From Octopus vulgaris (lineage: Eukaryota), in the NCBI GenBank assembly GCA_951406725.2, contig OX597815.1, positions 10,912,001 to 10,976,000 of the forward strand: a stretch of DNA of 64,000 nt, in the 5' to 3' direction. The notes beneath the pieces are model-generated. The model was given only the letters and a program-made list of their open reading frames with translations, was not told the origin of the DNA and made no database searches. The first letter of the stretch is position 1, and every line of letters begins with the position of its first letter. The position numbers and the translations under genes are program-made. This document shows positions 39,999 through 51,512 of the stretch, in pieces.

Positions 39999-40043
39999 TG
40001 TCCGGAAATCTTTCGTCACACATCTGTGACCTCTTCAGCGACA
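39999..40043 (-). ncRNA. Minimal type I hammerhead in the PLE 3' pseudo-LTR (C3-G8 core)
   Basis: Minus strand reads TGTCG CTGAAGA G GTCACA-gatg-TGTGAC GAAA GATT TC CGGACA, downstream of a PLE ORF on the same strand. Confidence 0.8.
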
Positions 40044-41796
40044 CTTTTCGCCTTCGTGTATGCTCTTGCTCCACTTATTTCATTCTGTTCTTCTATGGTG
40101 TATATCCTTATGTGCGCATGCGTTTGCGTGTGTGTTTGTGTGTGCGTGTGTGTTTGTGTATGTATATGCATGTGTGTGTGTGCATGCTTGTGTGTGTGTG
40201 TGTAATTGTTCTTAGTAGCAGTATGACCTTTCCCTCAGTTCCATCCTCTTGGTACAGTTCCTGTATCCCTCTGTGTTTGTGTGTTCACCCTCGGCGCTGT
40301 CATCGTGGTAGTAGTTGTTGTTATTGCCATCGTTGTCACGCCGCTGCCGCTGTCGTTGTCAGTCGTGTTGTTGATACTGTTGCGGTCATCTGTGAAATTA
40401 CTGTGTGTGCGTGTGCGCGCGCGCGCGCGTGTATATGGGTTCGCTTCTTATGTTGTTTGTATCCATGACCTTTATATAAATGTATTTATTTATTTTTATT
40501 TATCTCTCTCTATTTCTTATATGTATCACAGGTATGTACATATATGTCTATTGTGTGTGTATTACCCTCTTTGTGTTTTATTTATTATTGTTATTTTCCC
40601 CTCTCTCTTCTGCTCCCTTTTGTCTTTAGTCATGTGGTGTGGTGATTGGGGTTATTGTTCCATTAGTATTTTCTATCGAGGCTCGCTCTATCTACTGCTA
40701 TGTGTGTAGCCTCTGTGATCTGCCTAAGTGCCGTGTCACTTCTATGCGTCGATAATACTTTACTATCTATGCTATTAATCGGGCCTCCATGTTCTGCTTG
40801 AGCGTGTTGGTAGAGCACTGACAAGCCTTTCTTTTCGTGGAGCTCTCGCCAGTATTCACCTATACTCTCCCCTGTGCTGCGTGCAGTCTCTCCAATGTAA
40901 GTGGTTGTCATGTTTCTGCATCATCCCTCAGTACATCGTAAGCTATACACGATATTCCTAACCTTACAGTTAACCCATGGGTTCATAATACATACAACAC
41001 AATTGTTCTCCGATCAGGGATTTTATAGGAGCGCCAGGCCTTTCTACTACCTTAATCCATAGATTAGTCTTAATGTTTTCCTAATAATGTATGCTAGTTT
41101 GCCGCCAGGGATAGCATCAACGAACATGACACTCTGGTCTTTTTTGTAGTCATACCAAGAGTTGACCGTATCTATCTTATTTCTGGTCCTTTCTGTGCTG
41201 TTCTATGATTCACTCCTGTACAGCGGGCAGATCCGTTTAGCATCACTCTCTATGATAGCTTTGTACTTAGTCCTGGCTCCTTTGTATACTCTAATCCTGT
41301 ACTTTTGGTTGTAGCCAGAGAACTGCATGCGGTGGATGAAGTGTTGTGTCTTTCCAATTTCATAGGGTCGCACATGCCAGACACATTCCTCATCGCTCTC
41401 ACCAAGTCAGTTATAAGAATGTTGAACTTGGCGTTGTCCGCAATAGCTGTGTTTTTGTGAACAAGGTATTTAAAGGCCGTGGGTTTGGCATAATGAGAGT
41501 GAAGGATCTGGACCTTACCGTTCTTCGTTTCTAGCCAGAGTACTGAGTCTAAAACGGGTAATCTATAGTCTGGGTGCTTACTGGGGTAGTCTATCGTTAT
41601 TTAAATACTCAGATAGATGGAGTTAGCTATTTGCTGGATGCTCTCCGCAGTGTTAGCTTATAGATCATCAACATTGTCATGTAGGATTGCTTTGGCTACT
41701 ATGTTGATATCATCCACGTAGTAGGAGTTCATGGTTACATTCATGGAGTTCACTGCTAATTTCTCTTTGAGTCTCCTATCCGACCATACCATAAAG

Positions 41797-41841
41797 TATC
41801 GCCGAAGAGGTCACAGATGTGTGACGAAAGATTTCCGGACA
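41797..41841 (+). ncRNA. Second, inverted copy of the PLE hammerhead with a U4C core change
   Basis: TATCG CCGAAGA G GTCACA-gatg-TGTGAC GAAA GATTTC CGGACA; lies in the inverted repeat of 39891-40048. Confidence 0.7.
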
Positions 41842-43788
41842 ATGGACATGAGTTAGAATAAGAACAGTAATAAACGAGTGAAGAACAAATATATAGTGCG
41901 TGTGTTTATTTGGCAAAAAAATTACCATCCCAAAATACAATATGTTTCAACACACGAATTCACATCAGCAGTCTTGCCTCATAAATTCATATATATATAT
42001 ATATATATATATATAAATTTATGAACTTATGACTATATACATATATATATAAATTTATGAATTTATGAATATATACATATATATATAAATTTATGAATTT
42101 ATGAATATATATATATCGTTGCTGTCATGTAAACTTTACTTTTTCAGAAAACTAAAAAATAGTTTCACCATTCCAAAGCAAAACTGTTGTTCTACACTTT
42201 GCTAATTTTTTATATCTTGGCACCTGAACTAGCTGGAGATACGATGGTTTGTAGGCATGTACATGTATGTGTGTATATATGCATATATATATATTATTTA
42301 TATTATTTACACACACACACACTCACACACACACATATATATATATATATATACAACTATGTATATACATATATATACATACATATATACATACATATGC
42401 ATGTATACGTATACATCTCTATATATACATATATACACATATATATGCATACATACATATATATATATACATAATATATATGTGTATAGATAAATATGTA
42501 TGCATGTATATATGTAATGTGAGATAATAATTTCACTTGTAAGAGTTTCACCATTATTAGTTACACTATGTATATATTATATACATAGTGAAAGTATTAA
42601 TAGTGAAACTATTAAAACTGAAACTTTTATCTCACATTACAATAGAGGTGTTATTGTTTCACTTTTGACACATAATACCGAAACAGTCTAAGAAATTGCT
42701 CCGGGCTCGCATCAGACAAGAAGTTGAGATTGTTTCTAGCCCATGATACTCCATGGCCCCTAAGTGGTGTATGTGTAAAATTTGAATGAAATCGGTTGAG
42801 TATTCCTCGAGTTTTAGTGATGCACACATACAGACAGACAGAGACACACACACACTCTCTCTCAGTTATATATATATATTTATATATACATATATATATA
42901 TATATATATATATATATATATATATATATATATATATATATATATATATATATATATATATTATATATATATATATATATATATATATCTATCTATCTAT
43001 CTATATATATATATATATATATATGTATATACATATTATTTTACACGCACACACACACACACACACACACATATATGATGGGGACTCGTTAAACATTACA
43101 CTGTTAAACCGGATATCGTATGGAACGGCCAGTATCTATCTATTTGAGCCTCCTCTACCATCTTTGTAGGGGCATATTTTGATTCTATTAGGGAAATACT
43201 GTATCCTGACCACAGGTGATAAAATCATCATAAATAGTTGATGCATTTAATATAATCGCGAATCATAAATCGGAAATTTATTTTTTCTGTCCTTGCGATG
43301 AGATGTGTGCTACGAGATAACATGGCACACTCAAAAGAAGCTAGTTATGATATGAGTGGATGGTAGGATAACGGGAGATTGATTAAACTATGGACACGAA
43401 ACAAAGGAATGATTAGCAGAATGTCATCAGCTGTACATTCTGTTAATTATTCTATTTTACACCCCTCTGTAAGAAATATACCTTTTTTTTAGAACTCTGC
43501 ACCACTTTGCTAATTTCTTAATTTTACTATTTTTTCAATAAATTTCTTGCTACTCACTGTGATTGTTTTTTCGTATCCAGAAGTTACTTATATAAATAAG
43601 GTTTACACTATCTTAGATATGAAGAAATAACCTATGCTTATTCTTGAGTAATATCTATGTCAAGTGAGTGAATTCCTTATGACAGCACAGAACAAACTGC
43701 TGTGATAACCGCCTCACGTAACACAACTTGCGTTGAAATGCAATTGTCGTCGATATTATCAGCTATGTATTCCTTGTATTTTACATAT

Positions 43789-49180: not shown

Positions 49181-49899
49181 AGAATATATATACACACATG
49201 CATATATAATATATATACATATACATACATATACATATATATATATATATATATATATATATATATATGTATACATATATATATATTTATACATATATAT
49301 ATACATATACATATATATATATATGTATATATATGTATATATATATGCACATGTATATACAATATATATATACATGTATATATAATGCATTGTCTTTCCA
49401 ATGTAAGATGGGAATTAATGAGTTTGAATTAATAATTAGGCTGAAATAGACGTGCAATTTCTGAACATGAGTAATTACGTATCGTTTGTAATGAACAGAG
49501 TTTTATGATGTGCTATTATCAATTCGTGGACATTGGATGTAAGCACATATTTTTGTGTTAATTATCACATACAGTTATAGAGCTATGTTTGTTAGTTTAT
49601 CCATATGTATAATGATGATCTTTATGATAGTGATTCCATTTTAATGATACATGAATTATTTTAGATGGCATAAAATAATTAATTTCCGATCATGTCACAA
49701 CACGAACAAACGGAAAGAGGATGTCGCTGGGTTTTTTGTTATTTTCATAAAAATTGAGCTTCTCTTTGAAAAAGAACCGCCATATCCTTCTTCCTCAAAA
49801 ATATTCATAGCGAATCAATACGCAATTTAAATTATTGAAAATATTTACAATTGATAAAAACAACAATTATTGGCAGTTGCGATTCTAAACGATTTATAC

Positions 49900-50255
49900 T
49901 TACACACACACACATTATATATATATATATATATATATATATATATATATATATATATATATACACATACATATACATACATACTTGCATACATACATAC
50001 ATATATATATATATATATATATATATATATATATATATATACATACATATATATATATGTATATACATATATATATATGTATATATATATATATATGTAT
50101 ATATATATATATATATATATATGTATTAATATATATATATATATATATATATATATATATACATATATATATATACATATATATATATACATATATATAT
50201 ATATATATATATATATATATATGTATATATATATATATATATATATATATATATG
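49900..50255. repeat. (TA)n microsatellite
   Basis: Direct inspection. Confidence 0.95.
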
Positions 50256-50935
50256 AATTTGTGTTAGCGCTAGAAGCCACGTGTTAAAGCGAAAAAGAAA
50301 TTGCGATACAAACACAATGTAGAGTAAGAAGTCTTTTTAAAAGTTTTGATTGTCAATATTATAAGAAGGAAAATATAATTTTCTGAAAGTTAAAAAAAAA
50401 AAACCCAAAAAAAAAAAGAAACCCAGAAAACAACCTGGATCAAACCAAGAACAAAGTCCTCGATAATATTCGTTTGTTTCTCTTATCTGTTTTTCTCTCA
50501 CGAAATGAAAAGATGAAATAAACGATATTTTCCATTAAAAGTCGATGAAATTGGAAAATAATTGCAATGAACATGCACACGCACACGCAAACGCGCGTGC
50601 ACGCACACGCAAACGCACGTGCACGCACGCGCGCACGCACGCGCACACGCACGCATGCAGACACACATACGCCTCCCCGCCTACGAACACAATTTGTTTA
50701 AATTTCGAGTCTCCTTTTCCAGATTATCCCAACGAAATATTTAAGATAGATATGTAGATGGTGTCATATTCAAGTTTGAAGCAGTAATAATGAGGTATTA
50801 TAAAGTTCAAATTTAAGGGGATGATATTTTTTTTGTTTTGTTGTTTTTTTTGTTTTGACAAAAACATTTTCAGAAGTATTTGGTTTTTGGATTTGGTGTA
50901 CAAGATTCTTTATATGAGTTCGTGTGTTGAAGCAT

Positions 50936-51512
50936 ATTCTGTTGTGTCTGGAGAGAGTCATTTTCTTTTTGCGCCTTATAATCTAACACACTCACCGGTA
51001 AAATTTCCACTTTTTCCTTATTTTTATTGTCCTAAAATTTTCGTTGCGTCTTGCAACCTATTCAATAGTCTTCCCTTTTGTTTGTTTGTACGCATAAGTG
51101 TCGGTCAGTGTGTGTGTGTGTGTGCCTATACATACATACATACATACATACATACATACATACATACATACATACATACATACATACATACATACATACA
51201 CACATGCATACATACATACATACATACATACATACATACATACATACATACATACATATATACATACATACATACGTACATGCATGCATGTATAGGCACA
51301 CATATACACACACTGACCCACACACATGCACACAAACAAACAAAAGAGAAAGCAGTGTAAATAACGGACAGTGTCAAGACTATTGAAAAGGTTGCAAGAC
51401 ACAACGAAAATTTTAGGAGAATAAAATTAAGAAAAAAGTGGAAATTTTACCGGTGAGTGTGTTAGATTATAAGGCACAAAAAGAAAATGACTCTCACCAG
51501 ACACAATAGAAT
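50936..51512. repeat. Fold-back element with ~190 bp arms around (CATA)n
   Basis: 50936-51072 pairs with 51376-51512; 51076-51130 pairs with 51291-51346. Confidence 0.88.
51372..51420 (+). ncRNA. Hammerhead-like motif with U3-A8 core (inverted copy at 51028-51072)
   Basis: TTGAAAA (51383-51389) G GTTGC-aagac-ACAAC GAAA ATTT TA GG. The inverted copy has a perfect stem II GTTGC/GCAAC but core TTGAATA. Stem I is weak or interrupted. Confidence 0.5.

What the first reader, a model, noticed from the sequence alone, without database searches (positions are those of the whole stretch)
39999..51420. Three related pseudo-LTR hammerheads covary at the 3-8 core pair: C3-G8, G3-C8 and U3-A8
Seen: three different repeats (39999-40043 minus, 47042-47092 minus, 51372-51420 plus) share one layout. 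Each has TGTC 5' of the core, a 7-nt box, an extra G, a GT..-..C stem II, GAAA, a short near-palindromic stem III, GACA (in the 51 kb family seen in the inverted copy), then an A-rich stretch and GTGTGTT further downstream. The boxes are CUGAAGA, GUGAACA and UUGAAAA: positions 4-7 and 9 are constant, while 3 and 8 change together and stay complementary. Established: C3-G8 is a tertiary Watson-Crick pair in the active hammerhead and compensatory swaps can restore cleavage; PLEs carry minimal hammerheads in their pseudo-LTRs. Inference: these are sibling PLE-derived families whose ribozymes remain under selection but would be missed by CUGANGA-based searches.
Basis: partly seen in the sequence, partly recalled or inferred. 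Interest (0 to 1): 0.85.

Follow-up and report, generated by a model that had tools for sequence, protein, structure and literature searches.

The report
Swapped-core hammerheads in Penelope retrotransposons
Three related families of jumping genes in a large animal genome, likely an octopus, each end in a small hammerhead-shaped RNA whose paired core letters read C-G, U-A or G-C depending on the family; the G-C form, in about 8,000 copies, is likely a working self-cutting RNA that standard searches miss, but cutting is untested.

Summary
The three motifs belong to three high-copy families of Penelope-like elements (PLEs), each tied to its own RT/GIY-YIG frame and forming one clade. Positions 3/8 are fixed per family: C-G in 34 of 41 copies, U-A in 53 of 54, G-C in 75 of 77. 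Genome-wide exact matches: G3-C8 8,099, U3-A8 5,095, C3-G8 2,174. All 16 representatives from this genome and relatives keep a Watson-Crick 3-8 pair. Corrections: the shared TGTC/GACA stem is wrong for the 51-kb family, and four of five window copies carry damaging private mutations. U3-A8 is published (2011, 2014). Natural G3-C8 was not in the papers I could read; three key papers were unavailable, and this scan noted G3-C8 before in phages and protist PLEs. It sits in a young family with long stop-free frames and persists in an older sister family. Against function: only 1 of 98 copies begins at the cut site, and no same-strand partner for a dimer was found. Verdict: new variant of a known kind; cleavage untested.

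The parts
39999..40043 (-). Family A minimal type I hammerhead, canonical C3-G8 (box 40038-40032; stem II GTCACA/TGTGAC; helix III AGATTT; C17 at 40005; short bulged stem I)
40654..41795 (-). Broken 3' part of the family A PLE frame (RT motif YVDD, thumb, GIY-YIG), 5'-truncated, with stops and frameshifts
   Evidence: tblastn; sequence
39890..40653 (-). Family A 3' UTR / pseudo-LTR, microsatellite-rich, ending in the ORF-start peptide MTVPKYNN
41793..41980 (+). Inverted second copy of the family A pseudo-LTR plus tail; its box has U4 changed to C (41802-41808)
47042..47092 (-). Family B minimal type I hammerhead with G3-C8 (box 47085-47079; stem I TTTGTCA/TGACAAA in the family; stem II GTCGC/GCGAC; helix III AATATT; U17 at 47049). 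This copy has private changes at 47060 and 47048 that break one pair in each stem
46902..47105 (-). Short family B insertion: from the common 5' end about 20 nt before the box to the long 3' end (tail, ORF start MAYKHLPRCNC...)
51380..51416 (+). Family C minimal type I hammerhead with U3-A8 (box 51383-51389; stem I CTA/TAG; stem II GTTGC/GCAAC in the family, one pair lost here; helix III AATT; U17 at 51413)
51280..51512 (+). Family C pseudo-LTR end containing that hammerhead and the ORF start
50905..51141 (-). Inverted family C copy with tail; box 51065-51059 reads UUGAAUA (U3.U8, decayed) and has a 27-nt deletion upstream

Best explanation
The three motifs are minimal hammerhead-shaped RNAs in the pseudo-LTRs of three sibling Penelope-like retrotransposon families, each fixed for a different complementary 3-8 core pair, and the G3-C8 form is likely a slow self-cutting ribozyme that would need a second copy or the element's protein to fold. 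Shown: location, family-fixed pairs, link to RT/GIY-YIG frames, stems I and II fold in the monomer while helix III is only a 4-6 nt palindrome. Established knowledge: the 2'-OH of residue 8 does the chemistry and the 3-8 pair positions it, so engineered C3G/G8C partly rescues cleavage, also in a PLE hammerhead. Inferred: the RNA starts at an internal promoter just upstream of the box (22 nt in family B); the ancestral C3-G8 was replaced twice in this clade, by G3-C8 and by U3-A8; source elements keep the pair because some cleavage after residue 17 is needed to process tandem or read-through transcripts; cleavage is slow or late, so most genomic copies were made from uncut RNA and decay neutrally after insertion.
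For: Fixed pairs in copies chosen without regard to positions 3/8: B 75 of 77 G-C among 98 copies picked by the 3' flank alone, 21 being truncated there; A 34 of 41, C 53 of 54. 23 of 30 loci found by the family B endonuclease peptide carry a GUGAACA hammerhead 915-1240 nt downstream; frames of up to 1025 and 839 codons are stop-free and 98.3% identical. An older sister family (3' flank 72 of 102 majority columns identical) keeps G3-C8 in 21 of 30 copies while N7, loop II and helix III length changed, the palindrome being kept. All 16 representatives pair at 3-8: 9 C-G, 4 U-A, 3 G-C. Relatives from other hosts: 6 of 31 loci show a hammerhead, 4 C-G and 2 U-A. Genome-wide, 16,035 of 19,074 pattern hits are Watson-Crick at 3-8. 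Stems I and II of intact B fold with pair probabilities 0.65-1.0. Engineered rescue: PMC11167929, PMC8495972.
Against: No cleavage data. Only 1 of 98 family B copies begins at the predicted cut and 6 of 98 within 7 nt of it, while 42 of 98 begin 55-62 nt upstream. Neighbouring B boxes within 1.1 kb are on opposite strands in 18 of 18 pairs, and none of 8 long copies has a same-strand 5' pseudo-LTR, so no in-cis dimer partner and no complete element was seen. The AAUAUU self-duplex is weak (-0.2 kcal/mol) and G3 pairs with U17 in the monomer's lowest-energy fold. Within families positions 3 and 8 are no better kept than neighbours. The representatives are kin, so 16 of 16 stands for perhaps five independent changes, and they were picked by patterns that fix the other core letters. 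In the one PLE tested, hammerhead mutants did not affect insertion in vitro, and Naiad PLEs thrive without hammerheads.
Confidence: 0.62

Rival explanations
1. The fold is kept as a structural signal, for example a binding or folding element for the RT-endonuclease protein near the reverse-transcription start, and needs the 3-8 pair but hardly cuts.
For: Copies almost never start at the cut site; the hammerhead lies 125-185 nt before the 3' ends where reverse transcription would start; in Poseidon from anole the uncut RNA is the main template and cleavage appears only with protein.
Against: All catalytic letters (G12, A13, A14, U4, G5, A6, A9) are invariant in 16 of 16 representatives and residue 17 is never G in them; the 3-8 pair is a feature of the active conformation (established knowledge).
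Confidence: 0.2
2. The hammerhead is dispensable; each family inherited whatever its founder carried, and the complementary swaps are chance or were fixed long ago and are now neutral.
For: Only two changes separate the three window families; C-G to U-A needs two transitions; copies decay evenly; mismatch copies exist (95 of the first 100 C3 copies of family C are C3.A8).
Against: C-G to G-C needs two transversions; no family-level mismatch among 16 representatives; G3-C8 survived the divergence of old and young B while about 30% of flank columns changed; helix III changed length and stayed palindromic.
Confidence: 0.12
3. The letters are constrained at DNA level as part of the internal promoter that overlaps the box.
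For: Short copies begin at one place 13-48 nt before the box, often after an extra G (29 of 41 across the three families), which points to a transcription start; Penelope has an internal promoter with downstream elements (passages of PMC2377424).
Against: The distance from the start to the box differs between families (22, 48, 13 nt), and a promoter does not explain complementary changes at 3-8 or in stem II.
Confidence: 0.06

Closest known systems
Minimal type I hammerheads (min-HHRs) of Penelope-like elements, Cervera & de la Pena 2014 (PMC4209133)
   Same: Position in the pseudo-LTR, extra nucleotide after A9, G10.1-C11.1, 5-6 bp stem II, palindromic stub for helix III, U or C at 17, mostly solo truncated copies and inverted pairs; U3-A8 already described in Schistosoma Cercyon elements.
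   Different: Family B has G3-C8. None of the 56 aligned boxes in that paper's Fig. S3 begins with G. Here the non-canonical cores outnumber the canonical one about 6 to 1 under my pattern.
Natural U3-A8 hammerheads, Perreault et al. 2011 (PMC3088659)
   Same: Natural covariation at the 3-8 pair.
   Different: Only U3-A8 is reported in the part read.
Poseidon hammerhead of Anolis carolinensis, Frangieh et al. 2024 (PMC11167929)
   Same: Hammerhead about 100-190 nt before two alternative 3' ends (tail) at the ORF start; C3G/G8C partly restores cleavage.
   Different: There the swap is engineered and the ORF starts inside stem II; here the swap is natural and the ATG lies 90-135 nt after the box.
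Non-LTR retrozymes (PMC7229834; bioRxiv 10.64898/2026.07.22.740005)
   Same: Type I hammerhead in short interspersed repeats related to PLE pseudo-LTRs.
   Different: These copies are not head-to-tail arrays of a non-coding unit; they are truncated ends of protein-coding PLEs, mostly solo or inverted.

Membership tests
PLE minimal type I hammerhead | Canonical box CUGANGA | tested here: not met
   Met by family A only; B reads GUGANCA and C reads UUGANAA as fixed states. B is therefore filed as a variant; C matches the published U3-A8 variant.
PLE minimal type I hammerhead | Watson-Crick pair between positions 3 and 8 | tested here: met
   16 of 16 representatives; 75 of 77, 34 of 41, 53 of 54 copies.
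PLE minimal type I hammerhead | U4 G5 A6, A9, G12 A13 A14, A15.1-U16.1, H17 not G | tested here: met
   H17 is C in A, U in B and C.
PLE minimal type I hammerhead | Extra nucleotide after A9 and stem II opened by G10.1-C11.1 | tested here: met
   (G-C in 15 of 16; two representatives lack the extra nucleotide).
PLE minimal type I hammerhead | Palindromic stub instead of helix III | tested here: met
   AATATT (B), AATT (C, old B), AGATTT with wobbles (A).
PLE minimal type I hammerhead | Stem I closing the junction | tested here: inconclusive
   7 bp in B; only 3 bp in C (probability about 0.37); in the window's A copy the 3 inner pairs are not formed in the predicted ensemble.
PLE minimal type I hammerhead | Site-specific self-cleavage as a dimer or with protein | not testable with these tools
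   No assay; copy 5' ends give no trace of the cut.
Rfam hammerhead families | Covariance-model match | tested here: not met
   No hammerhead family up to E 10 for the A motif or an intact B motif; C was not scanned on its own.
Endonuclease-positive PLE | Single frame with RT and C-terminal GIY-YIG | tested here: met
   L348 1025-codon frame with GIY-YIG above the Pfam cut-off; RT motifs DVVSLY and YVDD by eye, Pfam RVT_1 not hit in B and only at E 0.023 in C.
Endonuclease-positive PLE | Pseudo-LTR with optional tail, 5' truncation, inverted 5' copy, microsatellite targets | tested here: met
   Two 3' ends at about +128 and +185 in B, tail encodes the ORF start, inverted pairs, (TA)n flanks.
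Neptune / Nematis / Hydra clade | CX2-5CxxC linker before GIY-YIG and placement among reference elements | tested here: inconclusive
   Linker present (CQSNCAVC), DKS at the DKG motif, long insert between RT motifs A and B; no named reference PLE was in the tree.
Non-LTR retrozyme | Head-to-tail tandem non-coding units each with a hammerhead | tested here: not met
   0 same-strand and 18 opposite-strand neighbours within 1.1 kb in the 98-copy sample; one locus, L002, has three same-strand copies separated by inverted pieces.

The most novel reading that the evidence does not exclude
A natural G3-C8 hammerhead, so far published only as a laboratory rescue mutant, is the most common hammerhead core in this genome, is carried by a recently active PLE family, and cleaves; the 3-8 pair has been swapped repeatedly in one retrotransposon clade, so hammerhead censuses miss whole high-copy families, and the three sister families form a natural series for testing what PLE hammerheads are for.
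Probability: 0.4. Interest if true: 0.66.

Novelty: new variant of a known kind. Interest (0 to 1): 0.5.

Why it matters
C3 and G8 are counted among the invariant hammerhead letters and are hard-coded in search patterns. A G3-C8 family with about 8,000 exact matches, long stop-free frames and an older sister family shows that the pair, not the letters, is what evolution keeps in these elements. Whether PLE hammerheads have a function is open (dispensable in vitro, absent from Naiads); repeated compensatory swaps argue for selection, and three sister families with three cores make the question testable. Statements that a PLE group 'lacks hammerheads' may need re-checking with free 3-8 pairs.

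Tried and rejected
Fourth pair A3-U8: 667 hits against 351 for the control, mostly one unrelated repeat without stem II, helix III palindrome or stem I; rejected as a hammerhead. A canonical subfamily of C: only 5 of the first 100 of 128 C3 hits have G8, near what decay would give; rejected. L121 as parent of family A: it is an unrelated element with its own hammerhead, the A copy being a separate insertion. Family B as a non-autonomous SINE: rejected once the endonuclease-linked copies were found. Copy 5' ends as marks of the cut site: not found. A splice acceptor as cause of the sharp 5' end of B: a branch-point-like and pyrimidine stretch is there, but no shared upstream exon and no such stretch in A or C; not favoured. 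Expression: no RNA holder listed; contigs of four runs with four organism labels cover the element and list no variant of 5% or more at positions 3 or 8, but contigs drop rare variants and show neither ends nor strand. Whole-window Rfam scan showed only simple-repeat matches among the 150 of 371 rows listed. Lunse et al. 2017 is not held; Przybilski & Hammann 2007 and Arkhipova et al. 2017 were not read. Any of these, and supplements not seen (Perreault Dataset S1, Craig file S2 beyond a five-term search, bioRxiv supplements), could hold a natural G3-C8.
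Full report
Observation. The three motifs are present at the stated coordinates. A local scan for N-UGA-N-N-A ... GAAA with a stem II finds them, plus an inverted copy of the 51-kb motif, among many chance hits in a 12-bp satellite. The window is G000:C2:10912001-10976000 in a 2.8-Gb assembly. The closest named protein to the family B frame is labelled Octopus vulgaris (61% identity), so the host is likely an octopod; that is an inference.

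Each motif is a high-copy family. DNA searches gave 3,471 (A, 40 kb), 1,430 (B, 47 kb) and 2,989 (C, 51 kb) first-look candidates, 40 scored each. Exact patterns N3-TGA-N-N8-A-G-GT-N6-22-AC-GAAA gave, against the reversed control: G3-C8 8,099/84, U3-A8 5,095/302, C3-G8 2,174/96, A3-U8 667/351, any letters at 3 and 8 19,074/3,615. The listed first 100 hits of each of the first three are almost all families B, C and A with its relatives. The A3-U8 hits are mainly one unrelated repeat lacking the stems. These counts depend on the pattern and are not copy numbers.

Positions 3 and 8 are fixed per family. I sampled family B by a 25-nt stretch beginning 13 nt after the predicted cut (8,226 genome hits), fetched nearly all of the first 100 places and recovered 98 distinct copies. 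77 cover both positions: 75 G-C, 1 T.C, 1 G.G. Among copies in all loci found by their 3' flank, leaving out central hits of patterns that fix 3/8: B 81 of 88 G-C, A 34 of 41 C-G, C 53 of 54 U-A (part of these loci were fetched by similarity to the window copies, a mild bias). In that table positions 3 and 8 are no more constant than their neighbours, as expected for copies that decay after insertion.

Corrections to the layout. In B, stem I is TTTGTCA/TGACAAA, stem II GTCGC/GCGAC, helix III the palindrome AATATT, residue 17 is U; an intact copy folds both stems with pair probabilities of 0.75-1.0. The window's B copy breaks one pair in each stem. In A, stem I is short and bulged and is not formed in the predicted monomer ensemble. 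Four of the five window copies carry changes in core or stems.

They are PLE ends. A peptide from the family C parent (L122: RT, linker with two cysteine pairs, GIY-YIG) hits the window at 41795-40654, minus, directly upstream of motif A, and hits sequence upstream of B and C motifs in other loci. The B endonuclease peptide finds 5,777 candidates, 150 scored, most without stops in the match; 23 of the 30 fetched loci carry a GUGAACA hammerhead 915-1240 nt downstream, 7 show none within 1.5 kb. L348 and L349 have open frames of 1025 and 839 codons, 98.3% identical, so the family is young. All 8 long copies examined are 5'-truncated and none has a same-strand upstream pseudo-LTR; present activity is not shown. 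Family B has two 3' ends, about 128 and 185 nt after the box, and the stretch after the GTGTGTT motif opens with related peptides in all three families (MAYKHLPRCNC, MTLPRHNRIC, MTVPKYNN), the tail signature of PLEs. A tree of 24 rows groups A, B and C with support 100 as (B,(C,A)) in both data sets; rows with under 100 residues were left out and no named reference PLE was included. A, B and C proteins are 47-55% identical.

Covariation between families. An older sister family of B (33 pattern hits, 0 control; 3 are young-type) has G3-C8 in 21 of 30 copies, the rest being single or double decay states; it differs in N7, loop II and helix III length (AATT), and 72 of 102 majority columns of the 3' flank agree. 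The pattern fixed the other core letters, so only positions 3, 7, 8 and the 3' side are informative. Of 31 related metagenome loci from other hosts, 6 show a hammerhead near the frame: 4 C3-G8 and 2 U3-A8. Two unrelated PLE families in G000 (L121, L257) carry U3-A8. In 16 aligned representatives the 3-8 pair is Watson-Crick in all: 9 C-G, 4 U-A, 3 G-C; 0 of 500 shuffles reach the covariation score. These rows are kin and hand-picked, so the shuffle count is not a probability; I count about five independent swaps. C3-G8 in the outgroups and in A makes it the likely ancestral state.

Where copies begin. 42 of 98 B copies start 55-62 nt before the predicted cut, 1 of 98 at it. At the modal start the preceding base is G, not the templated pyrimidine, in 19 of 28 B copies, 6 of 6 A copies and 4 of 7 C copies (binomial p about 3e-9 against a 26% background). 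I read this as the copied cap of an RNA starting at an internal promoter; that is inference. It means most short copies were made from RNA with an uncut hammerhead. Neighbouring B boxes are inverted in 18 of 18 pairs, which cannot supply a dimer partner on one transcript.

Mechanism. The most likely reading is a slow, partner-dependent ribozyme kept by selection on source elements. Established: residue 8 acts through its 2'-OH, G8C lowers the rate about 100,000-fold and C3G partly restores it (passage of PMC8495972); in the anole Poseidon element single mutants abolish and the double mutant partly restores cleavage, cleavage needs the protein, and insertion in vitro does not need cleavage (PMC11167929, parts 1-2 of 4 read); metazoan min-HHRs cleave weakly and only as multimers (PMC4209133, parts 1-2 of 4 and supplement parts 1-2 of 3). 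One passage of PMC3884650 says a G3-C8 variant is less active with C17 than with G17; family B has U17, which fits, though U3 occurs with A17 in other families. Rivals: structural signal without cleavage (0.2), neutral founder states (0.12), promoter constraint (0.06).

What is known. Natural U3-A8 was reported in 2011 (PMC3088659, passages and part 3 of 8) and in PLEs in 2014. For natural G3-C8: the search 'hammerhead + G3-C8' returned 1 paper, about an engineered variant; searches and passages of PMC6765202, PMC7229834, PMC6155905, PMC8557442, PMC10085705 and PMC11014351 showed none; none of the 56 boxes in Cervera's Fig. S3 starts with G. Of the bioRxiv retrozyme preprint I read part 1 of 5. 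'Hammerhead + octopus + Penelope' gave no description of these families in the listing. Lunse 2017, which reports about 150,000 PLE-linked variants (figure recalled, not from a call), could not be read, so absence from print is uncertain. This scan's earlier notes list G3-C8 in three phage findings and four protist PLE findings, unchecked by me; none from this genome.

Verdict. Real, correctly assigned to PLE pseudo-LTRs, partly known. The new element is a natural G3-C8 core fixed in a young, very high-copy, protein-coding family and in its older sister, within a clade that has swapped the pair more than once. New variant of a known kind; interest 0.5.

Noticed in passing
G000 families A, B, C: Short copies share a sharp 5' end 13-48 nt before the box, often preceded by an untemplated G, which may record the capped transcription start of the element's internal promoter.
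   Followed up: partly
L121:829-6900 and L257:2500-5800: Two further PLE families unrelated to A-C (57% identical to each other in RT-endonuclease), L121 nearly intact as an inverted pair, both with U3-A8 hammerheads, no extra nucleotide, helix III ACCGGT and A17.
   Followed up: partly
L348 minus strand, about 2010-1985: A conserved branch-point-like ACTAAC, pyrimidine run and AG lie immediately before the common 5' end of family B; possible splice acceptor as in Drosophila Penelope.
   Followed up: partly
window 60626-61810, minus: Open frame of 395 codons with a rhodopsin-family 7TM domain (Pfam 7tm_1, E 1.7e-24); likely a single-exon GPCR gene.
   Followed up: no
window about 8025-12000: Satellite of 12-13-bp A/T-rich units (GAAAATTTTC-like) that mimics the GUGAAAA box many times without being a hammerhead.
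   Followed up: no
L123-L152: A young repeat with hundreds of near-identical copies matching AUGAAUA...GAAA but without hammerhead stems; identity unknown.
   Followed up: partly
L111:1588-2133: Uninterrupted dCMP deaminase-like frame next to a family B insertion; possibly a retrocopy.
   Followed up: no
L104:2694-2753, L241:848-901, L191, L256, L116: At least four more canonical C3-G8 minimal hammerhead families in this genome.
   Followed up: partly
L348 frame: The RT has a long insert between motifs A and B, said to be absent from canonical C-terminal-endonuclease PLEs; relatives at 30-53% identity occur in many unnamed assemblies. The clade may be undescribed or a branch of Nematis.
   Followed up: no
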